DNA of 64,000 bases from Candidatus Sulfotelmatobacter sp. (GCA_035266345.1 DATFNP010000042.1:9660-73659), one strand, 5' to 3'; positions 2,105-16,615 are shown, counted from the first letter of the stretch. Numbers and translations are program-made. Notes: generated by a model from the sequence alone, not told the origin.

Positions 2105-3670
2105 CTATGAGCCGAGCGTCCTTTCGATGTATCTTTCTGGACTTGGTGAAACATCTACCAGTTTCGCCAGCGTCTGCCAGTGCCTCGGATGCGGGCGATA
2201 TCCCTCGCGGATGCGGCCACCGTACCAGCGAGACACTGAGATTTGTCGAGCGATAGCACGTGCTGAGGTCGAGGCGAGGAGTGGTTGAATCTTTTCCGAA
2301 AAGAATTTCTCTGTCAGCCACGCTGGCTGGTCGGACGACTTCCATGAGTGTTGCGCTAAAGCGTTCTTACGTTGAGTGATCGCACGCTTCAACTGGGCTT
2401 CAGGACCATTCGCCGTTTGGCGACCAATCCGCGCGGCATCGAGCATGTTCTTGGTGGCATCCCCAAGGGAGCAGCTGACACAGGTGGTACTGCGGTCTTG
2501 AATAGTTTTCCCGCAGCCGGGACAAATATTTTCCCGCCGGGGTGCCTTAATCGCGGATGGTAGTGGCGGTGCACCCTTTGCTTCTCGCTTGAAACGCTGC
2601 GTTAGCCGCGTAGGCGGCGCAGACTCACGAGCGAGCCTGGCTGAACTCGACCAGAGCGCACGAGCAATCCACTCCGCGAATGGCGCGACCGCACGAGCCC
2701 ACATCGGAGCTGTCTGCGAAAGTTGACAAGCGAAGGATGCGGTCAGCCGAGTGTTCCCATTTCCTAGCTCAAGAAACCATTCTCGCTTAAGCGGTTCGCG
2801 TGTGATCCAATCAAGCAAGTAAGCGTCCACGCGTGCGCGACTTGGCTCCATCAGGTCGCACGCCAAACTGTCGCGCGCAGTTGTGTCCACATGCAGAACA
2901 CCCAAGCCTGGGTCTAGTCCCAGACAAGCCGCTGCAAGACGAGCTTCGGATTCCAGCAGGCAATACAGAAAGTTAAGAATTGCGTTTGCGGGATTTGCGG
3001 CAAGCCGGGGTGATCCCGTCAGCGGAGAGACCCGCGCTCCGAAGCTCTGCCAATGAGCGGGAATTCGTCCAACCTCATTCTTCGGGAAGTTGACAGGTAG
3101 TGTGCTCCACGCCGACCAATAGGATCGGGCGGCTTGTGACTCGATCAACCGGATAGTCGTGATGCTCTCGGCGGCTGGCAATTCCGCCATGAATTGAGCA
3201 ATCTTGTCAGCGGCAGAGGTGTCCAAGAGTTTGTAACGCGCAACCTGTGCCTGCCCTGCGAGCTTCTGGCTGATTAGTTCTCGCGCGATTCGCAGCGCGG
3301 CGCCGGATGAAAGCGCAAGGGCTTGGGCTCGCCGGAGTTTGGCATCCGAAGGGCGGACCGGCCCGGTGACGGCGAGCACCTTACCATCACGTTCAAGCAT
3401 CGCAAAACTTGCATCCTGATCGGCGAGCCAGCGCAGCGCGGCCAGTGATATGAACCCGTCTGAGCCAATGCAGACCAAACGCCTCAGCCCGTGTCCGACG
3501 CGGGCGAGCCTGATCTTGCGGCGCTCCGGCCCGATGCCATCTTCGATTTCCAAGTGGCCGGACTGCATCCGCACCTTGATTCCGAAACCAGTGAGCGTGA
3601 GAACGCCACTTCTGCCAATGAGGGATTTACGGGATACGTTGTGTTGCGGTAGGGTGCCTGAAGCTGCCAT
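2105..3670 (-). CDS. cas1: Cas1-family integrase (casposase-like) with C-terminal Zn-ribbon and HTH extension
   Basis: 521 aa. Cas1 signatures: IESQAARSYW (catalytic E), NPANAILNFLY, GLDPGLGVLHVD (H), SLACDLMEPSRARVD (D/E). C-terminus carries CPGC..CVSC and an HTH-like ARQISVSRWYGGRIREG. Confidence 0.9.
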   Translation of the reverse strand: MAASGTLPQHNVSRKSLIGRSGVLTLTGFGIKVRMQSGHLEIEDGIGPERRKIRLARVGHGLRRLVCIGSDGFISLAALRWLADQDASFAMLERDGKVLAVTGPVRPSDAKLRRAQALALSSGAALRIARELISQKLAGQAQVARYKLLDTSAADKIAQFMAELPAAESITTIRLIESQAARSYWSAWSTLPVNFPKNEVGRIPAHWQSFGARVSPLTGSPRLAANPANAILNFLYCLLESEARLAAACLGLDPGLGVLHVDTTARDSLACDLMEPSRARVDAYLLDWITREPLKREWFLELGNGNTRLTASFACQLSQTAPMWARAVAPFAEWIARALWSSSARLARESAPPTRLTQRFKREAKGAPPLPSAIKAPRRENICPGCGKTIQDRSTTCVSCSLGDATKNMLDAARIGRQTANGPEAQLKRAITQRKNALAQHSWKSSDQPAWLTEKFFSEKIQPLLASTSARAIARQISVSRWYGGRIREGYRPHPRHWQTLAKLVDVSPSPERYIERTLGS

Positions 3671-3747: not shown

Positions 3748-4542
3748 CTAATTTGGATTCCGCAATTTGTACCTTCGTCTGGTCCGTTGACGTGTGGGCG
3801 TAGCCCTGCGCGACTGCACGAACACCTCTTCGGGTCTAAGAGATCCGACCAGATTGATGGCTGTACGTGCTTTAACCCCGAAGAGCGCGCCCGCGAGGGC
3901 CCGAGACAGAAACCAGAATTGCTTGTACCGAGTCGAGGGGCGTGCTGACACATCGCAGCGCGGGAAACGGGGATCACGCAACGCATCCACATATTGCTCC
4001 GCGAACTCAGACAAATAACCGGGCAGCGTACTGCCTGGAAGCATGGGCCAAGCCGGAAACTGCTCAACATCTTGGAAACCCCCAGGCTCAATCTCGACTG
4101 TTCGACTCATGAAGGCTTCTTTACAAATATCGCGCACTCGCTCGGGAGTCGTTTTGGGGTCTAGCAAAGAGTTGATTACCTCCGGCTCACCGGGGAACCT
4201 CAGTTCCTCCCTAGCTTCTTCTGCTATACAACGTCGTAACCAATCTCGCGTGACCGGAATCTCGGCATCTTCTATTTCTCGGAGCCTGGTTTCCCTCTGA
4301 GCCTGCGCCAACACACCAGCGCGAATCTCATTCCCAATGATCTCCTCGCGGTGCTGTCTCGTTTCTTCCTTTAGTTGAGCATCCGTTTTCCGGTCCAACT
4401 CTGCTTCTAACTGCTTCTGCTTTAGCCTATTGATCCGCCATCGGGGCATTCCCTCGGCAATCCTCCGAAAGTCCCAATAGAACTGATGGGCGAACGTGTA
4501 GAGCGTTTCTGAGTCTACTTTTGTTGGTCTTCCAGCTCCCAT
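3748..4542 (-). CDS. Conserved element protein of unknown function (264 aa), paralogue of 10391-11158
   Basis: Shared blocks with 10391-11158: N-terminal MGAGRPTKVD..FAHQFYWDFRRIAEG and C-terminal LRDPRFPRCDVSARPSTRYKQFWFLSRALAGALFGV..TAINLVGSLRPEE. It lies immediately upstream of cas1. Confidence 0.75.
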   Translation of the reverse strand: MGAGRPTKVDSETLYTFAHQFYWDFRRIAEGMPRWRINRLKQKQLEAELDRKTDAQLKEETRQHREEIIGNEIRAGVLAQAQRETRLREIEDAEIPVTRDWLRRCIAEEAREELRFPGEPEVINSLLDPKTTPERVRDICKEAFMSRTVEIEPGGFQDVEQFPAWPMLPGSTLPGYLSEFAEQYVDALRDPRFPRCDVSARPSTRYKQFWFLSRALAGALFGVKARTAINLVGSLRPEEVFVQSRRATPTRQRTRRRYKLRNPN

Positions 4543-4662
4543 AATTAAAGGGCAAAAGCTATTTTAGATTTCTTGAAGCTCTTAGGTTACATCCTCTATA
4601 ACTGCCTACAGTATGCACGTTGACTGCTTGTTACGCAAGGGGCAATAACAGGAGGCACCAGG
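4543..4662. promoter_or_regulatory. Divergent control region of the left module, with two AAGGG(G)CAA motifs
   Basis: AAAGGGCAAAA at 4547-4557 and CAAGGGGCAATAA at 4636-4648. The same motif pair is conserved in the right-copy intergenic region while the spacer is diverged. AGGAGG precedes the ATG at 4663. Confidence 0.45.
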
Positions 4663-4899
4663 ATGCACCGAGATGAAACCGTAGTAGCCGTTGGGATGTC
4701 CGAAGCGGCCCGGAGGTTGGGCCTGTCCACTCGCACCGTGGCCACGCTTGTCCTGCGGAACGAGCTTCCGAGCCGAAAGGTGGGCCGCCGGAGAATTATT
4801 CCGGTTATGGCATTGGAGGCCTTCGTTAGGAGTGATCACGGGTCTGGCTGCCTCGGGCCAGCTGCAGCTGCTGAAGGAGAAACTGGCAGAACGGCGTAA
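4663..4899 (+). CDS. Excisionase-family helix-turn-helix DNA-binding protein
   Basis: MSEAARRLGLSTRTVATLVLRNELPSRKVGRRRIIPVMALEAFV matches the Xis/MerR-type HTH pattern (..G.S..T...L...G.LP..K.GRR..I....L..F). Paralogue at 10047-10268. Confidence 0.85.
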   Translation: MHRDETVVAVGMSEAARRLGLSTRTVATLVLRNELPSRKVGRRRIIPVMALEAFVRSDHGSGCLGPAAAAEGETGRTA

Positions 4900-4904
4900 A
4901 AACC

Positions 4905-5459
4905 ATGCCGCACAAACGAAAGCGGCAGGCGGAAACCTCGTCCAGGGGCAGCCGCTCAGCCGCTAAGAACAAAAAACGCTTCAACATTAGTGTCTCGCGT
5001 CACGATGCATCGCGCAAGCGCATTACTGCGTTTGAACTCGTGAGACTTCGACGCCAGGGTCTTGCCTGGAGGGATATTGAAAAACAGTCGGGCATCACTC
5101 GCCGAACAGCAAAGCTTCTTCTCCCACGTGCTTTTTTCCATGACGAGCGTGGCCAGCTTCAGGTGCGTGGGTATGACCGGTATACCCGCACACTGAAAAT
5201 CCCCACGGCTAAGCCAGGGGAATTTAGGTGGCTGCGCGCTCGCGGGAGCCGCCAAGCAAGCCTTGTGGGTGCGTGGAACAACGCAGTCAAGGCCGCGGGG
5301 CGGGGCGATTTCTCACTTATAGATGCCTTTCCGCGCAATATCTTCATAGACGGAGTGCGTCTCGCAACCTCCCATTACGAGGTTTCACGTATCGCTGCGG
5401 CTGCTGCGGAGAGCGATCAGCCGTTCGAGGATCTGTACGCCCTGGCAGGTGCGGTGTAA
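4905..5459 (+). CDS. Conserved element protein of unknown function (184 aa, basic N-terminus, internal HTH-like segment)
   Basis: Same position as 9405-10031 in the other copy, with weak similarity by eye. Basic N-terminus: MPHKRKRQ. HTH-like segment: LAWRDIEKQSGITRRTAKLLL. Confidence 0.65.
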   Translation: MPHKRKRQAETSSRGSRSAAKNKKRFNISVSRHDASRKRITAFELVRLRRQGLAWRDIEKQSGITRRTAKLLLPRAFFHDERGQLQVRGYDRYTRTLKIPTAKPGEFRWLRARGSRQASLVGAWNNAVKAAGRGDFSLIDAFPRNIFIDGVRLATSHYEVSRIAAAAAESDQPFEDLYALAGAV

Positions 5460-5461
5460 CT

Positions 5462-5737
5462 GTGCGCAAACGATGCACACTTTGCGACAGGCCAGCCACA
5501 GAATGGCATCACGTCGGCGGCCGAAATCACTGCAGTTGGTTTCGTGTTCCGCTGTGCACTCTCCATCATCAGCTGGTAACCAGAGCCTATTACAATGCCG
5601 ACCCTGACATGATGAAACCGGCGTCGAACCTTGAGCAGCGGATCAAACGCGCTCGTGAAGGATGCCATGTCTTTTTGTGGTTACTGGATCACCCGGAGGT
5701 AATTGATCCGGAGAAGATTTTGGGAGGTAACGTATGA
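5462..5737 (+). CDS. Small HNH-like zinc-finger protein
   Basis: GTG start in frame. CTLCDRPATEWHHVGGRNHCSWFRVPLCTLHH fits CxxC..HH..G.N..LC..H. Its stop overlaps the polB-fragment start (ATGA at 5734-5737). Paralogue at 9115-9408. Confidence 0.7.
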   Translation: MRKRCTLCDRPATEWHHVGGRNHCSWFRVPLCTLHHQLVTRAYYNADPDMMKPASNLEQRIKRAREGCHVFLWLLDHPEVIDPEKILGGNV

Positions 5738-6477
5738 TTCCTGATCGCTTGCCAATCTTTCTTCGGGCGCACACGGTCAAAGTGCAGAGGCAGCCCAAAG
5801 CTCCATCGAAGAAAGATAGCGCGATGCCTCCACGCTGGCCAGAGCGCGCCCTGCTGTTCGACACTGAGACCCGCACTTCCATTGATCAGACGTTGATGTT
5901 CGGAGTCTACCGTATCTGCAATCTGATCGACGGACAGTACCGTTGCAGCGAAGAGGGTCTCGTCTATGATGAACGACTTTCCAAACAGGAACTCAACACC
6001 ATAGGGACTTTCGTGGCAAACAGTTTTCCCGACATCGAGCTGCCTTGCTTCCCGCCCAAGATACGGTTGCGAGTACATCGCTCGTTCCCCGAATTCATGG
6101 AACACGTGTTCTTTCCCGCGCTGCGTAAGGGATGGCTGATCGTGGGCTTCAACTTGCCATTCGATCTAAGCCGTCTCAGCCTCGATTGGCGGACGCACAA
6201 TGGGGGATTCGCCCTCATTTTTTCAAAGACGTGGTGGAGAAAAACTCAATGTTGGGTTGCGAATCCCTATCGGCCGCCGATCATCCTCGAAGCGAAAGAC
6301 GCGCGGACAGTATTCATGTCTCGTGGCTCAACGAAACGTCCGGCGGAATGGCCGAACGAAGCCAGACTCCTCGACATCGGAACATTGTTATTTTCGCTGT
6401 TCGATCAACATTGCAGTCTGCGCGATTGGTGGTGCCGGATATATTCCTCGATCATGTGCCCGTACGTGAGAGGGTGA
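5734..6477 (+). pseudogene. Family B DNA polymerase, N-terminal (exonuclease domain) fragment
   Basis: Aligns with aa ~40-290 of the 901-aa PolB (LLFDTETRTSIDQTLMFGVYR; VGFNLPFDLSRLSLDW; LLDIGTLLFSLFDQHCSLRD). Homology ends at ~6425-6430. The remainder is antisense to the other polB. Confidence 0.8.
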
Positions 6478-9110
6478 AAACCAGGATCGTCCATCCGGTA
6501 ACGTCGATATCGGCCGCGCCGATCCCGATTGTGAATATCGACACCTTCGAGACTGCGCCACTCGTCTTGCTTGCTCGAAAATGGCACAATCACCATGGGT
6601 TTGTGATCGGGTTTGTTATCAAAATCGAAATCGAATGAGTACGCCTCGGAAGTCATCACCATGAACATGAAATTGTGGGGACGTGCACCCTCCCACATCT
6701 CCAGCATCTTGAACACGTTCCAAGTCGATACGGAGAAGCGCATCATCTCCGGAAGTGAAGCCCAATCCGGTCGTGTGCGTTCTAATCCCAGAAATTCGCG
6801 CACGATGTAATCCCACATCTCGTAAACCCACAGTGGCGCGTCTTTTCTCCAATTTCCCGGGTTGTCTTTTGGGGGATAGAGAAAGCCGATTCCGTGCGCT
6901 TTGGGATTGACGATTTTTGTATCTGTTAATTTCCCGCGTCTGTTCAATACCTTTTCAAGTAGCGCGTATCTTTTGGCTGCTATGCCCACACCCCACAACT
7001 GCCGACGCACCTTTTTCTTCGCGTTGCAGTTGCATCCGCGCACCTCACAAACTCCGGCTTCATCATGCTCGGTTTTGAGTTCATGCGAACATTTGCACAC
7101 GTAATTGTCATCTGTGAGATTCAGTAGGTCCTGCACTACGTCCGGGTCGTACGGATTGAGCGCCTGGAACTTGGCAGTAATTCGGTCAACGTCATCCCAG
7201 GTCAAAATACGTTTACCCTGCGCGCCGGGGGTACGCAGCGTGCCGCCATTCTTCGATGCCACAATCGCCAAACTGTCGGTGTCGCAGTATAGATATGTTC
7301 CTCCGGCTCGCGTCACTTCGACCTCTAGCATCGCGAGCAAAAGCCTTCCGGCGGACGTGATGAGAGTTGCCAGGTAGGGCGCGAGCCACTTTCCCCGTTT
7401 TTCGATTACGCAGGAAGAATCAGGGAAACACTCATCACCGGAGAACACCATCACGCGCCTGGGTTGCTTGAAATGCTCTGGAATCAACTCCACAAAGAAC
7501 CCGTAGATCGAATTGGCCAGGATCTTCAACCAGTAGTAGAGATCGGCATCATCCTTGTTGCGTTTGCGTTCCTCGATAATCTTTGTGAAGAGGTCAACCG
7601 AATCATCATTAGGATCAATCAGGACTTTGCCGCGTAGTCTTACGGCTCTCATCCCCGGCTGCTTTCCGGAGGGCACAATGCGGAATGCCTGTTGAATCTT
7701 GGGAATCTTGCCGGGTTGCTGAACCACTGCGGCCACGAGGTCGGGGCCAGCCATGTAGACGGGTTCGGGATGAGCTGGGTTCGGATGCAAGTAGTTGTTG
7801 CCGATGTTATGGGTCACACCATCGTAGACAGTCCGGATGGGCAGGATGTCCCCATCAGGCAATACGCGGGCCACAAAGTTGAGATTGCGCCATGTGTCAC
7901 GCCGGAAGCATCTTTCCATAGTGATAGTCGCAACGAGGCGCTTTACGTTTTCCGTATCATCGACAAAGTCCAAACGCTCAGCCGTCAAGAATTTAAACAG
8001 CCCAAGGTTTGCACAACAGGATGGATACTCGGAGGTGTAATCAACAGGGGCCACGGGCACAACTTCGTGGCGGATTCGGCATTCGGAGCGACCGCCGTAG
8101 TAGCTCTGCATCCAACACCCAAGCTTTTCGTTGGGCACCTTGAACTTGACCTCAGGTCGTTCGATCCCCATTGCCTTCAGGTACGCTTTGGCAATACTCG
8201 CAGGTGAATAGGCATTCCAAGGCTTCAAATCTAGATCGGCATGCCTGTCAAATTCCTGCTTACAGGCGTTCAGCAATGCAATCGTGCAGCGGACATCCTG
8301 ACGGCAGTGTTCAATTTCCTCAGGTGTGACTCCGCCACTCGGATCATGATCATCTTTCTGGGGTAGGTTCTGCCCTTTGAAAGGACCGCCTTTGTTGTCA
8401 CAGGCAGTCCTAAGCGAGTGCGACTTGTTGTAAAGCACCCAGAGCAAGGTCCGAAGGTCGAGAAAGTGGATGTTTCTACCTGCGTCCTTCCACTCGTGTT
8501 GATTCTTCTTCCAAGGTCGCCACAGCTTGATTATCTGTTTCTTGCTGTCTATTGGTGTGATCAGGATGCGGGGATAATTGCAATTTTCGGGGCCGTCGGC
8601 ATATTGCATCAGCACGAGCGACCATTCGCCCTTATTCCCGTCCGTCCAGTCCAGGGTGATCCGCGTGAGATCGTAGCCGAGATTAAAGCCGACCACCATG
8701 GAACCGTCTCGCTTCAGCGCGGGCCAGAGTACCTTCTCCATGAACTGGGTGCGCGAGTAAAGCGGGAAGCGGGGAGGAAATGACGGTACATCGGAGACCG
8801 CCGTCTCCGTGTAAGTTTTGAGAACTTTGAGATCTTTCACGGGCAGGTCGTCAGCATGGAAAATCCCCTCTTCGATGACCTCATATTTCTGTCCGACTAG
8901 CTTGCTGCAGCGCCGCCATACGCCAAAGGTGAGTGACTGATCTACTGTGACCCGGCTTTCGGTATCGAACGCGAGGATGTCCGGCCACTTGGGTTCGCCC
9001 AGGGCATTGTTCTCCCCTTCGGTATTGGCGGTCTTTTTCTTCTTTTTCTTTCTCTCTATCGGTACGGCAAGAGCGCGCAAAAAGAGATCGTGAGTCTCAA
9101 TCATTTCCAA
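6405..9110 (-). CDS. polB: Family B DNA polymerase (3'-5' exonuclease plus polymerase domains)
   Basis: 901 aa. Motifs: Exo I AFDTES; Exo II VGFNLGYDLTRI; motif A VDYTSEYPS; motif B KILANSIYGFF; motif C YCDTDSLAIV; KxY IAAKRYALL. Confidence 0.92.
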   Translation of the reverse strand: MEMIETHDLFLRALAVPIERKKKKKKTANTEGENNALGEPKWPDILAFDTESRVTVDQSLTFGVWRRCSKLVGQKYEVIEEGIFHADDLPVKDLKVLKTYTETAVSDVPSFPPRFPLYSRTQFMEKVLWPALKRDGSMVVGFNLGYDLTRITLDWTDGNKGEWSLVLMQYADGPENCNYPRILITPIDSKKQIIKLWRPWKKNQHEWKDAGRNIHFLDLRTLLWVLYNKSHSLRTACDNKGGPFKGQNLPQKDDHDPSGGVTPEEIEHCRQDVRCTIALLNACKQEFDRHADLDLKPWNAYSPASIAKAYLKAMGIERPEVKFKVPNEKLGCWMQSYYGGRSECRIRHEVVPVAPVDYTSEYPSCCANLGLFKFLTAERLDFVDDTENVKRLVATITMERCFRRDTWRNLNFVARVLPDGDILPIRTVYDGVTHNIGNNYLHPNPAHPEPVYMAGPDLVAAVVQQPGKIPKIQQAFRIVPSGKQPGMRAVRLRGKVLIDPNDDSVDLFTKIIEERKRNKDDADLYYWLKILANSIYGFFVELIPEHFKQPRRVMVFSGDECFPDSSCVIEKRGKWLAPYLATLITSAGRLLLAMLEVEVTRAGGTYLYCDTDSLAIVASKNGGTLRTPGAQGKRILTWDDVDRITAKFQALNPYDPDVVQDLLNLTDDNYVCKCSHELKTEHDEAGVCEVRGCNCNAKKKVRRQLWGVGIAAKRYALLEKVLNRRGKLTDTKIVNPKAHGIGFLYPPKDNPGNWRKDAPLWVYEMWDYIVREFLGLERTRPDWASLPEMMRFSVSTWNVFKMLEMWEGARPHNFMFMVMTSEAYSFDFDFDNKPDHKPMVIVPFSSKQDEWRSLEGVDIHNRDRRGRYRRYRMDDPGFHPLTYGHMIEEYIRHHQSRRLQC

Positions 9111-9114
9111 TCCC

Positions 9115-9408
9115 TCATTTCGAGTTGCCCTCTAGTGCTTTTTCTTTCTCGATGTCTGAAGCAATTTCCTTTTCGAGCATGTCAAGCAGCATCCACATGA
9201 ACAGAACCGTCATCTTCAGGGCACGGATGAGCCTGTGAAAGCGATTCGGAGTGGAGCGTAGATCAATTCCGGCAGCCCGCTGTCTCGCATGGAAAATTAC
9301 TTGACACCTGGCGCAGAGCGACATGGTGAACCATGCAATGAAATTCTGCCCCCCGACGTGATGCTGCGTCACATCACAGGTGCTACCGCAGAGATTGCAC
9401 CGTCTCAT
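9115..9408 (-). CDS. Small HNH-like zinc-finger protein
   Basis: CNLCGSTCDVTQHHVGGQNFIAWFTMSLCARCQVIFH fits CxxC..HH..G.N..LCxxC..H. Its start overlaps the stop of 9405-10031. Confidence 0.8.
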   Translation of the reverse strand: MRRCNLCGSTCDVTQHHVGGQNFIAWFTMSLCARCQVIFHARQRAAGIDLRSTPNRFHRLIRALKMTVLFMWMLLDMLEKEIASDIEKEKALEGNSK

Positions 9409-10031
9409 GCGGCACCCCCGAAGTACGGGATGACCTGTTCACTACCGAAATGTTCGGGGAGATTGTCTTGCTCGCCCAACCTCCGAAGGGTTTTCGGGTC
9501 GGTCAGAAGCTCGTACCCTTGGACCGTTACGCCTCGCCATTTATCAAGCGCAGTAAGATCGCCTCTTTGAAAACGGAAGACATCGTTGCGGAAACGTGCA
9601 ATCTCGTTCCTGGCCTTTGAGCCTTCGATTTTGATTATGATTGGACCACTCGGGCCGGGAACTTCCATCCGGCGGACATAACGATCAGCGATGGCGCGGA
9701 TTCTGCCGTTCCTGTCCTTTTTGAATGCCTTGGGTATGTATTTCCAAAAGTCGCGGGTCGTGACGCCTCGGCCCTCTGCAGCTTGCGAAGCCGTGAGCTT
9801 GTGGTCGCGCAACATATCCGCATGCGCCGCCAGTGCATCCCCACGTTTCCTTAGCTCCGCCGGAGAGAGTAACCATGGGCGAGGCGCGCGATAGTGCTTA
9901 GAAACTGCGGCCGTGGCACGAGCAATTTCACCCGCGCGCGCAGATCGCGCTAAACTTGAGTTGATTGGTTTAGTTTTTCTGGCCCCCGGTAGCCTGGCGC
10001 GGCGAGCCTGGGACCTTCTTTTTGACGGCAT
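9405..10031 (-). CDS. Conserved element protein of unknown function (208 aa, basic N-terminus)
   Basis: Positional counterpart of 4905-5459, translationally coupled to the HNH-like gene. N-terminus: MPSKRRSQARRAR. Confidence 0.7.
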   Translation of the reverse strand: MPSKRRSQARRARLPGARKTKPINSSLARSARAGEIARATAAVSKHYRAPRPWLLSPAELRKRGDALAAHADMLRDHKLTASQAAEGRGVTTRDFWKYIPKAFKKDRNGRIRAIADRYVRRMEVPGPSGPIIIKIEGSKARNEIARFRNDVFRFQRGDLTALDKWRGVTVQGYELLTDPKTLRRLGEQDNLPEHFGSEQVIPYFGGAA

Positions 10032-10046
10032 TGGCTCACCCCGCGC

Positions 10047-10268
10047 TCATGCTGTTTCCCTCAAAGCTGCTGCTCTAGTGCGACCAGGCCCATGGTTGGC
10101 TTGTACGAAAGCCTCCAAAGCCACAACGGGGATAATCCGTCGGCGACCTACCTTGCGGCTTGGTAGCTCCCGCCGCAGAACAAGAGTCGCTACTGTTCGA
10201 GCGGACAGCCCCAACCGCCGGGCTGCCTCAACCATCCCCACCGCAAGCACAGTTTCATCTCGGTGCAT
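10047..10268 (-). CDS. Excisionase-family helix-turn-helix DNA-binding protein
   Basis: MHRDETVLAVGMVEAARRLGLSARTVATLVLRRELPSRKVGRRRIIPVVALEAFV is nearly identical to the 4663-4899 product. Confidence 0.85.
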   Translation of the reverse strand: MHRDETVLAVGMVEAARRLGLSARTVATLVLRRELPSRKVGRRRIIPVVALEAFVQANHGPGRTRAAALRETA

Positions 10269-10390
10269 CTTCGAGCCTCCTATTTATTGCCCTTGCAGTG
10301 GCTAACCAGCAAGGCGCATAATATAGTTGTGTTGTACGGGATGATGACAATCACGGTCAATGATAGAGAAGCAGTTTTTGCCCTTTAATT
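10269..10390. promoter_or_regulatory. Divergent control region of the right module, with two TTGCCCTT motifs
   Basis: TTATTGCCCTTG at 10284-10295 and TTTTGCCCTTT at 10376-10386, the reverse complement of the motifs in 4543-4662. Confidence 0.45.
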
Positions 10391-11158
10391 ATGGGAGCCG
10401 GTAGACCACAAAAAGCCGACCCTGGATCGGTCTACGCGTTCGCGCACCAGTTTTATTGGGATTTCCGGAGGATCGCCGAGGGGAATCTTCGGTGGACACT
10501 GGACAGGGTAAAGCTTCGACAGTCGACCATCGAGCTTGAGAACTTGAACATCCCCGCAGAGGCAGCCAAGAAAGCTGAGGAAGAAATTCAAGCTGGTCTC
10601 TTAGAAGCATCCAAAAAGCAGGAACGGTGCCGGGAGCTGGAGGATCAACTCTCCTCAACACGGCCACTGTGGTCCCGTATCGTAAGAGAGGATGCTATGA
10701 AGGAAGTCAGGATACCGGGTGAACCCGGAGTCCTTAAGGAATTGCTGGACCCGGCAACGACTCCGGAGCGGATACGAGAGGTCTGCAGAGAAGCAGTCAT
10801 GACTAGGAAGGTTGAAGTTGAACCCGGCGTGCAGAAGGAAATAGAAGTAGAGGCCTGGCCCATTCCTCCAGGCAGTCCATTTCCCACATATTTGTCTCAG
10901 TACGCAGAACAGTACGTTGCTGCCTTGCACGACCCGCGTTTCCCTCGCTGTAATGTTTCAATCCGCCCGTCGACCCGACTGAAGCAATTCTGGTTTCTAT
11001 CTCGCGCCCTCGCGGGTGCGCTTTTCGGGGTTACCACACGCACAGCCATCAATCTGGTCGGCTCCCTCCGACCCGAAGAGATTTTCGAAGAATCTCGGGA
11101 TGCAAAACCGGCACGCAAACGGGTGAGGCGAAAATACAAATCGCGGCCCGCAAGCTAA
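10391..11158 (+). CDS. Conserved element protein of unknown function (255 aa), paralogue of 3748-4542
   Basis: MGAGRPQKADPGSVYAFAHQFYWDFRRIAEG ... LHDPRFPRCNVSIRPSTRLKQFWFLSRALAGALFGVTTRTAINLVGSLRPEE. Confidence 0.8.
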   Translation: MGAGRPQKADPGSVYAFAHQFYWDFRRIAEGNLRWTLDRVKLRQSTIELENLNIPAEAAKKAEEEIQAGLLEASKKQERCRELEDQLSSTRPLWSRIVREDAMKEVRIPGEPGVLKELLDPATTPERIREVCREAVMTRKVEVEPGVQKEIEVEAWPIPPGSPFPTYLSQYAEQYVAALHDPRFPRCNVSIRPSTRLKQFWFLSRALAGALFGVTTRTAINLVGSLRPEEIFEESRDAKPARKRVRRKYKSRPAS

Positions 11159-11236
11159 GCTTCTTGAAGTAAAACGGGCCTGCCGACTGTTAGTAGCAGC
11201 CGACAAGCCCTGACCACCACAGGAGGCATTACTCCA

Positions 11237-12763
11237 ATGGCAGCTTCGCCCACGCTACCGCACTCGCACGCCCTCCGCAAATCTGGCGTCCTGGTCTTGA
11301 ATGGCTATGGCATCCGCGTCCAGGTGAACGCCGGTCATTTGCTCTTGCATGATGGGATAGCCGACGACCGCTGCACCATCCGCCTGCCCCGTGTAAACCA
11401 TGGTCTGAAAAGGTTGGTGCTGATCGGGAGCGACGGTTTCATTACGCTAGAAGCCCTGCGCTGGCTGGCTGATCAGGACGCGAGTTTCGTGATGCTTGAC
11501 CGCAGAGGCAAGGTGCTTGCCGTTACTGGTCCTGTTTCTCCATCGGATGCCAAGCTCCGCCGAGCACAGGCGCTCGCAATCGGCAACGGGACGGCGCTCA
11601 AGATTTCCAAGGAACTCATCTCCCAAAAGCTCGCCGGGCAGGAGCTACTCGTGCGGGATATGCTGCATGATTCCGCGGCAGCAGACGCAATTGCTCGATT
11701 CAAGGATGAACTACAAAGCGCGGAAGGTATAGAAGTCGTGCGGCTGATCGAAGCGCAGGCTGCGCGCTGCTATTGGCAATCGTGGGCTAACATACCGATT
11801 CACTGGCCGCGCAAGGACGAGCGCCGTGTGCCGGAACATTGGAAGCGATTTGGTTCCCGCATCTCACCCTTGACCCACAGTCCACGCCTTGCGGCCAACC
11901 CGCCGAATGCCTTGAGCAACCTGATCTATTCGATCCTGGAGGCGGAATCGAGACTAGCTGCATCGGCGATGGGCCTTGATCCCGGCATCGGCTTGCTCCA
12001 CGTGGACACCCCCAACAGGGATTCTCTCGCCTGTGACATCATGGAGCCGATACGCGCGAAGTGTGATGCCTTTGTTCTTGATTGGCTTCAGCGAGAGCCG
12101 CTCCGCCGCTCCGACTTTTGGGAGGACCGTAATGGGAACTGCCGCATTGCGTCACCGTTGGCCATCAAGCTCTGCGAGACTTCGGACACGTGGCGCAAAC
12201 TAGTAGCTCCGGTAGCAGAATATGTCGCGCAAGAGATTTGGTCCTCCGCGTCCAAACCAAGTTCCGTATCCAAGATTGCTCGACAATTGATCGCAACTCG
12301 CCTTACGCAGCGCTACAAACGCGAAGCAAAAGGTGGCGACCTACCAAAAGTTGGCCAGCCTAAACCCGAACATGTTTGCAGCGATTGCGGAGTCAAGATT
12401 CCAGTCGATGGGCAGCGCTGCTGGAAATGCTCAAAGCGGGTTACGGGTGTCAACTTCAAAGCCGGGCGTAAGTGCGCACAGCAACCGGAGCACCTAGCAA
12501 AGCGGGCAGCCACCATGCGGCGGCACAAGCAGGCCATTCGAAATTGGAAACCCTCAGACCTCCCGGCGTGGCTCACCCGCGATGTCTACCTAAAGCGGAT
12601 TCAGCCCGCGCTTGCCAGCGTCGCGAAGGCGCAAATCGGCGCCCTGCTGGGCGTAAGCGAGCCGTACTCATCGGACATTCAGGCGGGCAGGCGTATTCCG
12701 CATCCGAGGCACTGGCAGGCGCTGGCCCAACTGGTCGGTCTTCCGCCTGGCGGTGCTCATTGA
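11237..12763 (+). CDS. cas1: Cas1-family integrase (casposase-like) with C-terminal Zn-ribbon and HTH extension
   Basis: 508 aa. Signatures: IEAQAARCYW, NPPNALSNLIY, GLDPGIGLLHVD, SLACDIMEPIRAKCD. C-terminus carries CSDC..CWKC and the HTH-like IGALLGVSEPYSSDIQAG. Roughly two-thirds identical by eye to 2105-3670. Confidence 0.92.
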   Translation: MAASPTLPHSHALRKSGVLVLNGYGIRVQVNAGHLLLHDGIADDRCTIRLPRVNHGLKRLVLIGSDGFITLEALRWLADQDASFVMLDRRGKVLAVTGPVSPSDAKLRRAQALAIGNGTALKISKELISQKLAGQELLVRDMLHDSAAADAIARFKDELQSAEGIEVVRLIEAQAARCYWQSWANIPIHWPRKDERRVPEHWKRFGSRISPLTHSPRLAANPPNALSNLIYSILEAESRLAASAMGLDPGIGLLHVDTPNRDSLACDIMEPIRAKCDAFVLDWLQREPLRRSDFWEDRNGNCRIASPLAIKLCETSDTWRKLVAPVAEYVAQEIWSSASKPSSVSKIARQLIATRLTQRYKREAKGGDLPKVGQPKPEHVCSDCGVKIPVDGQRCWKCSKRVTGVNFKAGRKCAQQPEHLAKRAATMRRHKQAIRNWKPSDLPAWLTRDVYLKRIQPALASVAKAQIGALLGVSEPYSSDIQAGRRIPHPRHWQALAQLVGLPPGGAH

Positions 12764-12770
12764 CCCCATG

Positions 12771-12792
12771 ATGAGTGTAAACGGGATTTTGC
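12771..12792 (+). repeat. 22-bp direct repeat, copy A (ATGAGTGTAAACGGGATTTTGC)
   Basis: Matches 13487-13508 at 20 of 22 positions. Begins 8 nt after the right cas1 stop codon. Confidence 0.85.
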
Positions 12793-12815
12793 AACATTTG
12801 AGCAAGGCCACTGAC

Positions 12816-13385
12816 TTACGGTGAACGAGGAAGGCCCCTTCCCACTTCAATAATCATGTAGGGTCCTGTTGGAAATTCGCGTCCATCCGCCTCGATCACA
12901 AACCTCACCATCTCGCCTTTTAGCTTACCGCGAGCCGCCGTGGCTTCGGACCCTATCGAGAGAGTCTGACCGGGCCAAAGTCGCTTGTCCACCAGTTTGG
13001 ATTGTGCGATCCCTAGAGGGTATGGGCGACAATAGGTTCCCGCCGTATCAAAGAGCGTTTTCCAACTGTGCGTTCCCGTGTCCAACTGCTCAAGTCTATA
13101 CGGGACGCTCACTCCATGAGCGCCTGCGTCCGAAACAAATTCACATCTCTCGATTGTCGCTGGGAAGAGCCCGAAGTTTGTAAGGTGCGCATCAATGAGT
13201 TGCGTGATGCCCGGTATTCCAGTGTCGCCGTCGGAGACGGTCACATCAGCGTGCAGTCCAAGCGAGACGAAGTGGCCATATTGCGAGTGATGGTGAATTT
13301 GCAGGGCTCCGAGCGCAAGTACGAGAAACGAAAACACGGCAACCAAAGTCAAGGTCACGGGCCGCATTCTAAGAGCACGTTGCAT
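12816..13385 (-). CDS. Hypothetical secreted or membrane-anchored protein (189 aa)
   Basis: N-terminal hydrophobic signal-like segment VTLTLVAVFSFLVLALGAL. Lies entirely between the two 22-bp direct repeats. Confidence 0.55.
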   Translation of the reverse strand: MQRALRMRPVTLTLVAVFSFLVLALGALQIHHHSQYGHFVSLGLHADVTVSDGDTGIPGITQLIDAHLTNFGLFPATIERCEFVSDAGAHGVSVPYRLEQLDTGTHSWKTLFDTAGTYCRPYPLGIAQSKLVDKRLWPGQTLSIGSEATAARGKLKGEMVRFVIEADGREFPTGPYMIIEVGRGLPRSP

Positions 13386-13486
13386 AGCAGATCATGATAG
13401 ACCCGACTCGATGACCCAACCAACGCAGCAGCTTGTGTTTAGCAGGACAATTGACGAAATCAGGCGATTACACGTTTTGACGGTCA

Positions 13487-13508
13487 ATGAGTGATAACGG
13501 GATTTTGC
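13487..13508 (+). repeat. 22-bp direct repeat, copy B (ATGAGTGATAACGGGATTTTGC)
   Basis: Matches 12771-12792 at 20 of 22 positions. Confidence 0.85.
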
Positions 13509-13521
13509 GCCAACCCACGCC

Positions 13522-13944
13522 CTAATTTCCGTCAGGGCATTTGCAGGGAGTCGGAGGCGGTGGTGGCGGCGGTGGCGCTACTAGGAACGTATTCAACTGC
13601 GCAGTTGGAAGCTCGTAGAGGCCGCCGACCCTCAACCAGCAATACAACGCGAGCGCAGCCACCGGAATGCCGATCAGCAACGAGACTGCAAGTTTCCTCG
13701 AAGGTAGATGAAGCGGCTCGATTGCCTTCCGGGCTATGAAGAACCTTCCCATCGGCAGCGCCAATCCCACGACCATGATCAAAAACATCAGGATCGACCT
13801 GACCATCTGTGTGGTCATTCCCGATCCTGAAATCGCGTTGTAAAGAAACTCAGGGAACGTAAGCATGAGTTCCCCACGTGCCAGCGCTCCAACAAGGGGA
13901 CGGATGAAAACTGGAAACGCCCAGAACCACACGATGACAAACAT
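13522..13944 (-). CDS. Hypothetical integral membrane protein with poly-Pro C-terminus
   Basis: Several hydrophobic segments (MFVIVWFWAFPVFI, ILMFLIMVVGLAL, LLIGIPVAALALYCW). The tail has a PPPPPPPP run. The start was chosen at the internal Met because the upstream part of the ORF is a G-rich, Arg/Pro-rich stretch that is unlikely to be coding. Confidence 0.5.
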   Translation of the reverse strand: MFVIVWFWAFPVFIRPLVGALARGELMLTFPEFLYNAISGSGMTTQMVRSILMFLIMVVGLALPMGRFFIARKAIEPLHLPSRKLAVSLLIGIPVAALALYCWLRVGGLYELPTAQLNTFLVAPPPPPPPPTPCKCPDGN

Positions 13945-14257
13945 CACGAACCACGCAAGGAGAGAGCGCTTCGCATAGCCCGCGCTTCTCGCTCTACCAG
14001 CTAGCCCCGCGCCTCGCGCGGGCGGGCGGGCCCGGCGGGCTGGGTGTTCCAGCGGGCGGGTTCGGGGTTCCTGGGAGCGCGCGGGCGGGGGCGGCCAGGT
14101 CAAAATCGGGGGGTATGGCCGTCCATCCGGCGCTGTGGTATTACGGTGCCCCGAGTGACCCCGCTGGGTGGGGGGTGGAGCCGTTTTTCCCGTAGCCACA
14201 TCCTACCCGAACCAGTATTGACGCCATCCCCCTCAGCCCCTAACATTCCTCTAACGC

Positions 14258-16615
14258 ATGATTGGCGAAACCGTATCCCATTACCGCATTCTCGAGCAGC
14301 TGGGCGGCGGTGGAATGGGAGTCGTCTACAAGGCCGAGGACACCGAACTTGGCCGCTTCGTCGCCCTGAAATTCCTGCCCCACGACCTGGCCAAAGATCC
14401 TCAGGCGCTGGAGCGCTTCCGGCGCGAGGCGCGGGCCGCGTCTTCGCTGAACCATCCCAACATCTGCACCATCTACGAAATCGGCAAGAGCGGCGAGCGC
14501 ATGTTCATCGCCATGGAGTTCCTCGACGGTGCAACGCTCAAGCACCGCATCAACGCCCAACCGCTCGACAAGGAAGTGCTCCTGACGCTGGCGGTCGAGA
14601 TTGCCGACGCGCTCGATGCGGCGCACTCCAAAGGCATCATTCATCGCGACATCAAGCCCGCGAACATCTTCGTGACCGAGCGCGGTCACGCCAAAATTCT
14701 GGACTTCGGCCTCGCGAAGGTTGACGTCGGAAACTCCACTTCCACTTCGGGTAACACGCAAACCCTCGACCGCGCGCAGTTGACCAGTCCCGGCTCGACC
14801 CTGGGTACGGTCGCCTATATGTCTCCGGAACAGGCGCGCGCCAAGGAACTGGACGCCCGCAGCGATCTGTTCTCCTTCGGCGTGGCGCTCTACGAGATGG
14901 CGACCGGAATCCTGCCCTTTCGCGGAGAGAGTTCTGCTGTCATCTTCAAAGCGATTCTCGATGCCCAGCCCGCTCCGGCCCTGCGGCTGAACCCGGATTT
15001 GCCTCCGGAGTTGGACCGCATCATCAACAAGGCCCTCGAAAAAGACCGCGATCTGCGCTACCAGAACGCTGCTGACCTGCGCGCCGATTTATCGCGACTG
15101 AAGCGCGATTTGGACTCCGGACGGTCTTCTCCTGCGGAAGTCGTCGAAGCACCGGAAAAGATGTCATCCGCCAAAGTGCCCGCCGCTGGAGGTTCGCGCT
15201 GGCCTCTCTGGGCCGGCCTCGCCGCACTGCTGGTCGTGATTGCCGTCGGAGCTTCCTGGCTGCGGCCAAAGACCGGGGCCAACAACGTTTCTTCCATCGC
15301 GGTTCTGCCTTTCGTAAACGCCACCGCCGACCCGAACAATGAATACCTCAGCGACGGCTTGACGGAGAGCTTGATCAGTACCCTCTCCCAGCTTCCGGGC
15401 ATGAAGGTCATGGCGCGGAGCACGGTGTTCCGCTTCAAGAACAGCCAGGACGATCCGCAGAAGGTCGGGCAAACGCTGCAAGTTGCTGCCGTGCTGACCG
15501 GGCGCATCACGCAGCATGGGGACGAACTCGGCATTCACGCCGAACTCGTCAATTCCGCCGACGGCAGCGAGATTTGGGGCGCGCAGTACACGCGCAAGCA
15601 GGCGGACATCACGCAGGTGCAAAGCGACATCACGCGTGACGTGTCCAAAAGCCTGCACGTGCAACTGAGCGGCGAGGAGCAGCAGAAACTGGGCAAGGCC
15701 GGAACCAGCAACCCGGAAGCCTACCGCCTCTATCTGGAGGGCCGCCAGCAATGGGCCGGACGCACGCAGCAGGGCCTGAAGAAGAGCATCGAGTTGTTCC
15801 AACAGGCGATCGCCGCTGATCCTAACTACGCCCTCGCTTATGCCGGACTGGCCGATACCTATAACGTGGCCCCAAGCTATGACATCGGGATTGGCTCAAA
15901 GCAGGCGATTGCGCTTTCCGATGACGCCTCGCGCAAGGCCGTGCAACTGGACGGTTCTATTTCCGAAACGCACAATTCGCGTGCCGCCGCGTTGGCGTCT
16001 GATTGGCGCTGGAGTGAGGCCGAGACCGAATTCCGGCGCGCCATCGAGATCAATCCCAACAATGCCCATGCGCATTATTTCTATGCCTTCCTGGTGTTAG
16101 TGCCCGAAAACCGTGCGGACGAGGCTCTTGCAGAATTTCGCACGGCGCTTTCGCTGGATCCGCTCTCCCCAATCGTTAACACAAATTACGGCTGGACCCT
16201 GATGGTGGCGCATCGGTATGAAGAATCCTTAGCCCAATTCCAAAAAGTGATAAAGCAGGATCCGAACTTTGGGCCCGCGCATTTCAAATTTTCACACCTG
16301 TTGGCCACTATGGGTCGCTATGCAGAGGCGGTGGGCGAGATGCAGAAGTTGGAGGAGCTCCTCGGGCATGTGTCGGTGACTCCTGACGCCAACGGGTATT
16401 GCACGTTGAATCAGGCAATCACCGGAGCCGACAGAATGCCATCGTCAGCCCTGGCCTGCGCGACCACCAACCGCGAAGTTGCGCTCCGGGCGATGGAGTC
16501 CGGGTCTGAAAACGGAGATCTGGTCGGGGAGTTTATGCGTGGCCCGGAGTTTGACCCGTTGCGTTCCGATCCGCGCTATATCGAAACCATGCGGAAAATC
16601 GGGCTGAACCCATAG
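14258..16615 (+). CDS. Serine/threonine protein kinase with TM segment, periplasmic-like domain and C-terminal TPR repeats
   Basis: [38 protein letters not shown] kinase motifs. TPR-like repeats in the C-terminal third. Confidence 0.95.

What the first reader, a model, noticed from the sequence alone, without database searches (positions are those of the whole stretch)
12771..13508. 22-bp direct repeat (20/22) brackets a 0.7-kb one-gene segment immediately outside the right Cas1
ATGAGTGTAAACGGGATTTTGC (12771-12792, starting 8 nt after the cas1 stop) recurs as ATGAGTGATAACGGGATTTTGC at 13487-13508. The only content between them is one minus-strand ORF (12816-13385, signal-peptide protein). A direct repeat of this length at an element edge is what target-site duplications or reiterated attachment sites look like. 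Tandem insertions share a repeat between neighbours, so the bracketed segment could be the decayed remnant of a further insertion. In that case one of the repeats marks the true right end of the island. A weakly similar core, CGTGAAAACG (reverse complement of 2074-2083), lies 23 nt beyond the left cas1 stop. I regard that match as too short to rely on.
Basis: seen in the sequence. Interest (0 to 1): 0.6.

Follow-up and report, generated by a model that had tools for sequence, protein, structure and literature searches.

The report
Shared end-repeats of stacked mobile units
The two 22-base repeats are real, but they are copies of the end-repeat of a widespread family of small gene-carrying mobile units that pile up next to Cas1 transposons (casposons) in soil Acidobacteria, not a footprint of host DNA duplicated by an insertion.

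Summary
The repeat exists as described: 12771-12792 and 13487-13508, 20/22 identical, none expected by chance.

It is not private to this locus. It is the core of a ~35-nt arm (GGTCAATGAGTGTAAT-CGCGATTTTTCGCCAAyT, here "T arm").
- About 20 copies lie on 17 contigs of this genome.
- The 16-nt core occurs in 49 of 201 genomes of the family (37 genera), against at most 1 hit per genome for a reversed-pattern control.

The 0.7-kb segment is an intact one-gene mobile unit. It consists of a T1 arm (12771-12805, contains DR1), ORF189 (12816-13385, minus strand) and an inverted T2 arm (13449-13481). ORF189 homologues at 80% and 74% identity sit in unrelated chromosomal contexts with the same two arms, and homology stops at the arm ends.

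DR2 belongs to the next arm (13482-14), a solo copy. The closest relative (G015) keeps this arm beside the same host gene. Lower GC and homology to G015 both change at 13482/13483, so this point is the right edge of the inserted DNA.

T arms are tied to casposon ends. The last 10 nt at the cas1R end (…CTCATTGACC, ending 12765) match the T core. In three or four other casposons cas1 ends at or in a T arm. A complete casposon (G087) carries a T-like arm inside its 188-bp terminal inverted repeats.

Most likely reading: a tandem stack of casposon-family elements, with the cargo units moved in trans. That last step is inferred, not shown.

The parts
2105..3670 (-). cas1L, casposase of the left, inverted casposon (CasA)
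   Evidence: Pfam Cas_Cas1 3.4e-41. 53% aa identity to cas1R and 63.5% to the cas1 on contig C107.
2045..2085 (-). Weak T2-like stretch just beyond the cas1L stop.
   Evidence: Local alignment to the G054-type T2 arm scores 21, p=0.0027 per 70-nt window. p=0.02 against a second T2 arm. No hit with the arm HMMs. Suggestive only.
6405..9110 (-). Family B DNA polymerase of the right casposon (CasB)
   Evidence: Pfam DNA_pol_B_2. Homologous PolB genes lie next to cas1 in C107, G051, G164, G237 and G087.
11237..12763 (+). cas1R, casposase of CasB, with C-terminal HTH
   Evidence: Pfam Cas_Cas1 1.3e-38 plus HTH_31.
12733..12765 (-). CasB terminal stretch with a T-like core. Its reverse complement reads GGTCAATGAGCACCGCCAGGCGG; the T2 arm reads GGTCAATGAGTGTAATCGCCTGG. 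It overlaps the cas1R stop codon.
   Evidence: Read. The 10-nt match CTCATTGACC lies 5 nt from DR1. This gives the same inverted-arm / short spacer / arm junction as at 13449-13514. The match was found by eye, not by an a priori test.
12771..12805 (+). T1 arm of the ORF189 unit (DR1 = 12771-12792)
   Evidence: T1 HMM hit at 12771-12803, E=1.7e-5 in a 110-nt target, 12.9 bits. Consensus alignment score 34.5. Homologous to the 3' arms of the ORF189 units in L117 and L118.
12816..13385 (-). ORF189, the cargo gene: 189-aa protein with a hydrophobic N-terminus, no Pfam family
   Evidence: 178 homologues, named Terriglobales / Ca. Solibacter where a name is given. Metatranscriptome contigs from peat metagenomes (one from the same sample as a DNA run that holds the stretch) cover 12698-13373 with 0-1 differences.
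13449..13481 (-). T2 arm, the inverted partner that closes the ORF189 unit
   Evidence: Consensus alignment score 38.0 to T2 and 34.5 to T1. Near-identical to the arm 5' of the ORF189 homologue in L117 (ATCGCCTGATTTCGTCAATTGTC).
13482..13514 (+). Solo T1 arm on the host side (DR2 = 13487-13508). Its left edge is the right boundary of the inserted DNA.
   Evidence: nhmmer 3.2e-9, score 49. The arm is present at the orthologous site in G015 directly after the rarA stop. Many community contigs diverge right after 13514 (loose ends).
13522..14199 (-). Host gene p225 (225 aa, no Pfam family), conserved next to the arm in G015

Best explanation
**What it is.** DR1 and DR2 are two copies of the terminal arm (T arm) of a family of small mobile units found in Terriglobales-type Acidobacteria. 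The arm is about 35 nt and may extend about 12 nt further out.

**Anatomy of a unit.** One unit is a T arm, one or a few cargo genes, and an inverted T arm. The two arms differ slightly: T1 reads ..TAATCGCGATTTTTCGCCAA and T2 reads ..TAATCGCCTGATTTCGTCAA.

**Layout in the window (+ strand).**
- CasA, an inverted casposon with a truncated polB.
- CasB, whose cas1-proximal end carries the T core and stops at 12765.
- A 5-nt spacer.
- The ORF189 unit, 12771-13481.
- A solo T1 arm, 13482-13514.
- The host gene p225.

The two 22-mers are therefore the same-side arms of two neighbouring members of a tandem stack. That is why they are direct repeats that bracket one gene.

**Shown here.**
- The arm family and its spread across genomes.
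- The inverted partner arm at 13449-13481.
- The arms travel with ORF189 into unrelated loci.
- Units are multi-copy within a genome.
- The island edge lies at 13482/13483.
- cas1 genes repeatedly abut T arms.

**Inferred.** The units are non-autonomous relatives of the casposons. The casposase (Cas1) would move them in trans by recognising T-type ends. New elements would insert preferentially beside an existing arm, which would build the stack.
For: **The arm is a dispersed family.**
- About 20 T1 copies with E<0.01 lie on 17 contigs of the genome.
- The 16-nt core is in 49 of 201 family genomes, up to 95 copies each. The reversed control gives at most 1 hit in any genome (4 hits in all).

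**The arms move with the gene.**
- ORF189 homologues at 80% and 74% identity lie in unrelated contexts (GGDEF|RecG and Usp|POR).
- They carry the same T2 arm 5' and inverted T1 arm 3'. DNA homology ends at the arm tips.

**Units are multi-copy.** A ~420-aa cargo gene occurs three times in G164, each time between T1 and an inverted T2. Homology runs through the arm and ends about 12 nt beyond the core.

**No transposase in the units.** None was seen among the roughly 17 units with an arm pair in the 14 G164 regions read, apart from one that reads like a nested IS1595-type transposase (N-terminus judged by eye, not scanned).

**Island edge.** The GC step is at about 13500. Homology to G015 starts at 13483, and G015 retains the arm.

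**Link to casposons.**
- The cas1 stop lies at or inside a T1 arm in the window, G000:C107 (degenerate copy), G054:C8 and G164:C49.
- The G164:C49 casposon has a T1 arm on its polB side. The G051 casposon has a weaker one (E=0.14) about 3 kb beyond its polB.
- The complete 8.7-kb casposon contig G087:C104 has 188-bp inverted ends that contain a T1-like arm.
- The T core and cas1 co-occur in the same genomes: odds ratio 7.5, p=5e-5.
- Solo TIRs and tandem casposons separated by a shared TSD are already known in Methanosarcina (PMC4779613).
Against: **Weak or missing casposon link.**
- Many arm-rich genomes have no cas1R-like gene at E<=1e-40: G091 (49 copies), G180, G225 and G173. Seven cas1-positive genomes lack the core.
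- The closest relatives of cas1R (71-77% identity) show no T arm after their stop codon.
- The intact casposon G164:C11 has no clear arm near cas1.

**No clean duplication signal.**
- No target-site duplication was detectable around units. The best 14-mers match no better than mismatched flank pairs.
- Spacers between abutting arms vary from 0 to 34 nt.

**Ambiguous or post hoc points.**
- In G087 the inverted identity runs to both contig ends. The true terminus is therefore not fixed, and the outer part could be neighbouring repeats.
- The arm after cas1 is in the 'neighbour' orientation, so it can equally be read as a landing site.
- The 10-nt core match inside cas1R is post hoc. Its stop-codon region is also inherited from cas1 relatives.
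Confidence: 0.6

Rival explanations
1. Recombination-site cassettes. The inverted arm pair (arm, short spacer, arm) would be the site of an unidentified site-specific recombinase, integron-like in logic. Crossover in the spacer would excise and insert one-gene cassettes. Casposons would merely land in or beside these sites.
For: - Same-orientation arrays with 0.8-1.4 kb spacing, e.g. G053:C1, G142:C5 and G173:C52.
- One small, often secreted protein gene per interval.
- Arm copy number is largely independent of cas1.
- In G054:C8 a cas1 remnant lies between an inverted T1 arm and a T2 arm, as if inserted in the spacer of one site.
- A second small element (~170 nt) also sits at a fixed spot in T2 arms, so the arms act as landing sites.
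- Acidobacteria are known to have taxon-specific chromosomal attC sites (PMC8352920).
This is a lead only.
Against: - No integron integrase scores over the cut-off in G000, G054, G164, G015 or G001.
- No recombinase is consistently beside the arrays inspected. One array is preceded by a resolvase gene about 100 nt upstream, and another has a phage-type integrase about 4 kb away.
- Gene orientation relative to the arms is not fixed.
- The conserved part is the inner core rather than outer R boxes, and GTTRRRY/RYYYAAC cores are absent (my reading).
- Spacer length varies from 0 to 34 nt, which is unusual for a crossover region.
Confidence: 0.25
2. The 22-mers would be a target-site duplication or reiterated attachment site created from host DNA when elements inserted.
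For: - Direct orientation, a position at the edge of the casposon, and DR2 at the island boundary.
- Casposons are known to make TSDs of 14-35 bp and to share them in tandem arrays (PMC4779613).
Against: - The sequence is a dispersed family member, present in genomes without casposons.
- It moves with ORF189 into other loci.
- The unit is closed by an inverted arm, not by the direct copy.
- No copy lies at the left end of the casposons or of the island.
- DR1 matches arms in other genomes about as well as it matches DR2: 19/22 against 20/22.
Confidence: 0.04
3. A host repeat with a cellular role. It could be REP/BIME-like (moved by a RAYT), a terminator, or an operator/promoter element. On this reading it merely happens to flank ORF189.
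For: - The location is intergenic, often just past gene 3' ends or between convergent genes.
- The T1 arm contains a small GC hairpin (GGCGA-N4-TCGCC) with apparently compensatory variants among copies (my reading).
- The rc of the arm tip reads TTGACC, which resembles a -35 box.
Against: - No Y1/RAYT transposase gene lies next to any arm in the 20 loci inspected. Y1 genes are equally present in genomes without arms.
- No Rfam family matches.
- No consistent -10 box or downstream gene is present.
- Arms come as inverted pairs that enclose cargo and move with it, which a regulatory motif would not do.
Confidence: 0.06

Closest known systems
Tandem casposons and solo TIRs of Methanosarcina (family 2 casposons; Krupovic et al. 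2016, PMC4779613)
   Same: Cas1/PolB elements stacked at one place. Neighbours are separated by a short shared sequence. Inactivated copies and solo terminal repeats are left behind, so repeats recur at the element edges.
   Different: In Methanosarcina the shared sequence is a 14-bp host target duplication at a tRNA-Leu or intergenic site. Here the recurring 22-mer is part of the elements' own terminal arm. No fixed-length duplication was found. The stack also includes a 0.7-kb unit with a cargo gene and neither cas1 nor polB. I found no description of cargo-carrying non-autonomous casposons in the papers searched.
Family 3 (bacterial) casposons, e.g. AceAut-C1, NitAL212-C1
   Same: A bacterial host, a solo Cas1 of about 500 aa with a C-terminal HTH, a protein-primed-type PolB, and intergenic insertion.
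   Different: This locus has two diverged casposons fused tail to tail (cas1L and cas1R are 53% identical), one with a truncated polB. The ends share a core with a dispersed arm family. Membership of family 3 by Cas1 phylogeny was not tested here.
MITEs and cargo-carrying non-autonomous transposons (e.g. Tn3-derived TIMEs; from my own knowledge)
   Same: Units bounded by ~35-47-nt terminal inverted repeats, with no transposase of their own. They are multi-copy within genomes and more numerous than any autonomous partner.
   Different: Most units carry intact, diverse protein genes (0.7-7 kb) instead of being non-coding. They stack end to end, and their candidate partner is a Cas1 integrase, not a DDE transposase.
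Integron gene cassettes, attC sites and CALINs
   Same: One-gene units separated by imperfect palindromic sites of about 70-110 nt, in arrays. The cargo is mostly small secreted or hypothetical proteins, and sites are homogeneous within a taxon.
   Different: No IntI and no GTTRRRY/RYYYAAC cores. The sequence is most conserved at the centre of the palindrome, not at its outer ends. Gene orientation is variable. The unit boundary falls between the two arms, not at the outer edge.

Membership tests
   There is no third copy at the left of the casposons or of the island. The direct pair brackets a unit that is itself closed by an inverted arm. G015 has the arm at the empty-like site, but about 20 other loci have it too.
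   It is a dispersed family present in 49 of 201 genomes, and it moves with ORF189 into unrelated loci.
Casposon (context elements CasA and CasB) | Solo Cas1 plus a family B polymerase in one element, with no CRISPR array. | tested here: met
   Pfam Cas_Cas1 twice and DNA_pol_B_2. Gene order is shared with C107, G051, G164, G237 and G087. No array-like direct-repeat family was found in the first 20 kb; tandem repeats were not scanned.
Casposon (context elements CasA and CasB) | Terminal inverted repeats and a TSD that delimit the element. | tested here: inconclusive
   BLAST of the ends found nothing significant for C107, G051 or G041. The window pair owes its inverted arms to the two diverged cas1 modules. 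G087:C104 shows 188-bp inverted ends. No TSD was seen.
Non-autonomous derivative of a casposon (mini-casposon) | Terminal repeats homologous to those of an autonomous casposon. | tested here: inconclusive
   For: G087:C104, the G164:C49 polB-side arm, a weak arm hit (E=0.14) beyond the G051 polB, and the CasB 10-nt core. Against: the closest cas1R relatives and G164:C11 lack arms.
Non-autonomous derivative of a casposon (mini-casposon) | No integrase or transposase of its own, and multi-copy or found in different loci. | tested here: met
   The ORF189 unit holds one gene with no Pfam family. The same unit lies in three contexts. The 420-aa cargo unit occurs three times in G164.
Non-autonomous derivative of a casposon (mini-casposon) | Target-site duplication of casposase length (about 14 bp). 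| tested here: inconclusive
   An ungapped 14-mer scan of 26 units matches no better than mismatched flank pairs. One unit (L127) shows 12/14 with a 2-nt gap (by eye).
Non-autonomous derivative of a casposon (mini-casposon) | Mobilisation by casposase. | not testable with these tools
   This needs biochemistry or genetics.
Integron cassette / attC | Integron integrase (IntI) in the genome or at the head of the array. | tested here: not met
   TIGR02249 gives no hit over the cut-off in 5 genomes, including the two arm-rich genomes G164 and G054.
Integron cassette / attC | R''/R' cores RYYYAAC...GTTRRRY at the outer ends, with a variable centre. | tested here: not met
   The outer boxes read ..GTAAC / GTTAY.. 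only in G054 and G164, and ..CCAAyT.. in this genome. The invariant part is the central TCAATGAGTGTAAT (read by eye).
Integron cassette / attC | Arrays of same-orientation sites with one promoterless ORF each, in fixed orientation. | tested here: inconclusive
   Arrays exist, but ORF orientation relative to the T1 and T2 arms differs between units.
REP / REPIN with RAYT | A Y1 (RAYT) transposase gene flanked by the repeats, with presence correlated to the repeats. | tested here: not met
   PF01797 genes occur in arm-rich and arm-free genomes alike. No arm lies within 1.5 kb of any of the 20 loci inspected.

The most novel reading that the evidence does not exclude
The T-arm units are gene-carrying mini-casposons. 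On this reading, a Cas1 integrase in soil Acidobacteria moves not only its own 7-15-kb transposon but also a large population of 0.7-7-kb single-cargo units that end in the same arms. It would stack them end to end beside existing arms. That would be a Cas1-driven gene-capture array, intermediate in logic between a casposon, an integron and a CRISPR array. The mirror-image double-cas1 element in this window would then come from two insertions in opposite orientation against the two arms of one palindromic junction.
Probability: 0.35. Interest if true: 0.75.

Novelty: new variant of a known kind. Interest (0 to 1): 0.55.

Why it matters
Casposons are the presumed ancestors of the CRISPR adaptation module. 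How a Cas1 integrase came to build ordered arrays of short inserts next to a fixed sequence is still open.

This locus gives a bacterial system in which the pieces lie side by side in many genomes:
- casposon ends;
- solo ends;
- small cargo units with the same ends.

That makes the question directly testable: does this casposase act in trans on T-ended DNA, and does it prefer to insert beside an existing arm?

For annotation, it also explains a common repeat in Terriglobales genomes that breaks assemblies and marks islands of accessory genes.

If the recombinase rival is right instead, the same data describe an integron-like cassette system without IntI, which would also be worth knowing.

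Tried and rejected
- **Chance.** Rejected.
- **Small ORF or leader peptide starting at the ATG of the repeat.** The ATG is not conserved among copies, and similarity ends after about 12 codons.
- **Known RNA family.** None matches.
- **Sigma-54 or sigma-70 promoter reading of the arm.** The spacings do not fit and no -10 box is conserved (by eye).
- **Empty site in relatives.**
  - G015 gives only the right junction, because rarA (next to the arm in G015) is on another contig (C45) in this MAG.
  - valS is missing from the G015 assembly.
  - Other congeners (G004, G001, G003, G008, G009) have different content between valS and the downstream genes, so the region is a variable hotspot.
- **Casposon TIRs by BLAST of the ends.** Nothing significant for C107, the window, G051 or G041.
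- **Arm HMMs on the cas1L flank.** No hit.
- **Integron integrase.** None found.
- **RAYT association.** None found.
- **14-bp TSD scan around 26 units.** No better than mismatched flank pairs.
- **Community reads and contigs.** No joint removes the 716-bp unit; only the reference arrangement and repeat-induced depth peaks at the arms appear.
- **Tn3-type (GGGG...) TIR resemblance and 5-bp or 3-bp TSDs.** Considered by eye and not supported.
- **One script** used too loose a pattern. It was redone on the curated copies.

Full report
**1.

With up to 3 mismatches they are the only matches in the window, and none occurs in 100 dinucleotide-preserving shuffles. The cas1 stop codon is at 12761-12763.

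Between the copies lies one credible gene, 12816-13385 on the minus strand. It encodes 189 aa with a hydrophobic N-terminus and no Pfam family. It has 178 homologues, all from soil or peat metagenomes; the few that carry a name are from Terriglobales or Ca. Solibacter.

**2. Context**

The window is contig C42:9660-73659 of a 78%-complete MAG. Public runs that hold the stretch are peat metagenomes.

The "island bounded by two Cas1" is two different casposons joined tail to tail:
- CasA consists of cas1L (2105-3670, minus), p264 and a PolB N-terminal fragment (5734-6477).
- CasB consists of PolB (6405-9110, minus), p97, p208, p255 and cas1R (11237-12763).
- The two Cas1 proteins are only 53% identical. 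cas1L is closer (63.5%) to a third casposon on contig C107.

Lower-GC DNA (0.49-0.58, against about 0.59-0.65 in the flanks) runs from about C42:5400 to window position about 13500. Its left end lies just upstream of valS and includes an McrBC pair.

**3. The repeat is one member of a large family**

A whole-genome search found near copies on other contigs. Extending them showed a sharply bounded ~35-nt motif, GGTCAATGAGTGnAATnGCGATTTTTCGCCAAyT (T1 arm). About 20 copies have E<0.01 and lie on 17 contigs, all intergenic.

A second arm type, T2 (..TAATCGCCTGrTTwCGwCAA..), shares the 14-nt core TCAATGAGTGTAAT.

The 16-nt core with at most 1 mismatch occurs in 49 of 201 genomes of the family, in 37 of 142 genera. 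Copy number reaches 95 per genome. The reversed control pattern hits at most once in any genome.

DR1 and DR2 are a little more alike than average family pairs: 20/22 against a mean of 16.1. But DR1 also matches arms from other genomes at 19/22.

**4. The 0.7-kb segment is a complete unit closed by an inverted arm**

Directly left of DR2 there is an inverted arm at 13449-13481, with alignment score 38 to T2. On the plus strand the segment therefore reads: T1 arm (12771-12805), ORF189, inverted T2 arm (13449-13481).

The decisive comparison uses ORF189 homologues at 80% (locus L117) and 74% (L118-L120) identity.
- They lie in unrelated neighbourhoods: GGDEF|RecG, and Usp|pyruvate-ferredoxin oxidoreductase.
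- They carry the same T2 arm 5' of the gene and the same inverted T1 arm 3' of it.
- The three-way DNA alignment is homologous from arm to arm and unrelated outside.

The arms therefore belong to the unit and move with it. They were not copied from the local host sequence.

In G164, which has 106 copies of the 14-nt core (at most 1 mismatch), arm pairs enclose 0.4-7 kb of varied cargo. None of the units inspected has a transposase of its own. A ~420-aa cargo gene is present in three units, whose homology runs through the arm and stops about 12 nt beyond the core.

**5. DR2 and the island edge**

DR2 is part of a solo T1 arm (13482-13514) that abuts the stop codon of host gene p225. The closest relative available, G015 (about 83% nt identity), has the same arm next to the p225 orthologue, preceded directly by the rarA stop codon. 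Homology to the window begins at 13483. The GC step lies at the same place.

- There is no further 22-mer, in either orientation, at the left cas1 or at the valS-side boundary.
- The CGTGAAAACG stretch beyond cas1L is only weakly T2-like (p about 0.003-0.02, no HMM hit).

A clean empty site could not be obtained. In this MAG rarA lies on another contig with different downstream DNA, and the valS-proximal region differs in every congener examined.

**6. Relation to casposons**

Evidence that ties T arms to casposon ends:
- cas1 ends at or inside a T1 arm in the window, in G000:C107 (degenerate copy), in G054:C8 and in G164:C49. The last two share a homologous junction although they come from different genera.
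- The last bases of CasB...GGCGGTGCTCATTGACC ending at 12765, contain the 10-nt arm tip. They are followed after 5 nt by DR1. This reproduces the inverted-arm / short spacer / arm junction seen at 13449-13514 and at many junctions elsewhere.
- The G164:C49 casposon begins with a T1 arm on its polB side. The G051 casposon has a weaker arm hit (E=0.14) about 3 kb beyond its polB.
- The 8.7-kb contig G087:C104 is a whole casposon. Its two ends are 188-bp inverted repeats, 96-100% identical, that include a T1-like arm.
- cas1 and the arm core co-occur across genomes: 13 of 20 against 36 of 181, p=5e-5.

Evidence against a simple equation of arms with casposon TIRs:
- Several arm-rich genomes have no cas1, and seven cas1-positive genomes have no arms.
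- The nearest cas1R relatives have no arm after their stop codon, and the intact G164:C11 casposon has none nearby.
- No fixed-length target duplication could be shown.
- Spacers between abutting arms range from 0 to 34 nt.

**7. Other readings tested**

- Integron-like cassettes. Arrays with 0.8-1.4 kb spacing and one small secreted-protein gene per interval do exist. However, no IntI is present, the cores are not attC-like, gene orientation is not fixed, and the unit boundary falls between the arms. A non-integron recombinase acting on the arm pair remains the main rival.
- REP/RAYT. No link was found.
- RNA family. None matches.
- Community DNA contigs show only the reference arrangement, with depth peaks at both arm regions as expected for a repeat.
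- Metatranscriptome contigs from peat metagenomes (one from the same sample as a DNA run that holds the stretch) cover ORF189 and run across DR1 into the cas1 3' end. ORF189 is therefore probably expressed.

**8. Verdict**

The repeat is real and meaningful, but it is neither a target-site duplication nor an att core. It is the conserved arm of a widespread family of inverted-repeat-bounded, cargo-carrying units. DR2 is the solo arm of the next position and marks the edge of the island.

I put about 0.85 on this structural reading. I put about 0.35-0.45 on the further step that the units are non-autonomous casposon relatives moved by casposase.

In the papers I could search I found tandem casposons and solo TIRs, but no cargo-carrying non-autonomous casposons and no acidobacterial casposon targets. 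Earlier notes of this scan describe similar things in other genomes. I used them as leads only.

Noticed in passing
window 2105-12765: The 'mirror-image' element is two diverged casposons joined tail to tail. The left one keeps only the first ~240 codons of its polB (5734-6477, 34% identical to the N-terminus of the full PolB). p169 is homologous to p97. cas1L and cas1R are 53% identical.
   Followed up: partly
G000:C42:5566-9484 (left of the window) and C42:5250-5560: An McrC/McrB (AAA_5) restriction gene pair lies in the same lower-GC island, directly upstream of valS. A good leftward promoter candidate for valS (TTGACC-N18-TAAGAT) sits at about C42:5370-5399, where the GC drop begins. Earlier notes of this scan report casposons landing at valS promoters.
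   Followed up: partly
G000:C107:67097-73559 and G000:C67:31590-34037: The genome holds a third casposon (PolB, a p208-like gene, and a cas1 whose stop lies in a degenerate T1 arm). A further PolB gene lies at a contig end.
   Followed up: partly
G000:C4:3880-4040; also the contig ends of C35, C55, C61, C64, C67, C85 and C112: A ~170-nt non-coding element with inverted ends GTGGCTGTTGAAAAAsTC...GGACTTTTTCAACAGCCAC is inserted at one fixed position inside T2 arms (after ..TAATGGCCT). It is multi-copy, comes in at least two variants, and ends many contigs. G087:C104 has it on both sides of its casposon.
   Followed up: partly
G001:C9:133000-145200 (L048): A congener carries a decayed casposon (PolB in pieces, cas1 with frameshifts) directly upstream of valS. 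It lies between valS and the genes that sit 18 kb further right in this window. The valS-proximal region is a recurrent landing zone.
   Followed up: partly
G087:C104 (L139), whole 8658-bp contig: A complete casposon contig whose two ends are 188-bp inverted repeats, 96-100% identical. From outside inward each end reads: part of the ~170-nt element, an inverted T2 arm, a 4-5-nt spacer, a T1-like arm, then 55 nt more.
   Followed up: partly
window 14258-14723: The first ~470 nt of the Ser/Thr kinase-TPR gene recur at 72-79% nt identity on at least six other contigs (C2, C36, C53, C61, C64 three times). This is a large kinase paralogue family. The C2 paralogue starts ~70 nt, and one C64 paralogue ~290 nt, from a T arm.
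   Followed up: no
G015:C76 (L018) 11434-11530 and many G000 contigs: A separate ~45-nt GC-rich dispersed repeat (CCCCACCCTCTCGCAAAGAGCGCGAGAAGGATGGGGCA-like) is present in dozens of copies in both genomes. It looks like a REP-type element unrelated to the T arms.
   Followed up: no
window 12698-13373: Peat metatranscriptome contigs match ORF189 and span DR1 into the 3' end of cas1R with 0-1 differences. Transcription therefore crosses the junction; its direction is unknown.
   Followed up: partly
G164:C10:296000-303000 (L121) 2819-3733: One T-bounded unit contains a 304-aa ORF whose N-terminus looks like an IS1595-family transposase (zinc ribbon), probably a nested IS. It was not scanned against Pfam.
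   Followed up: no
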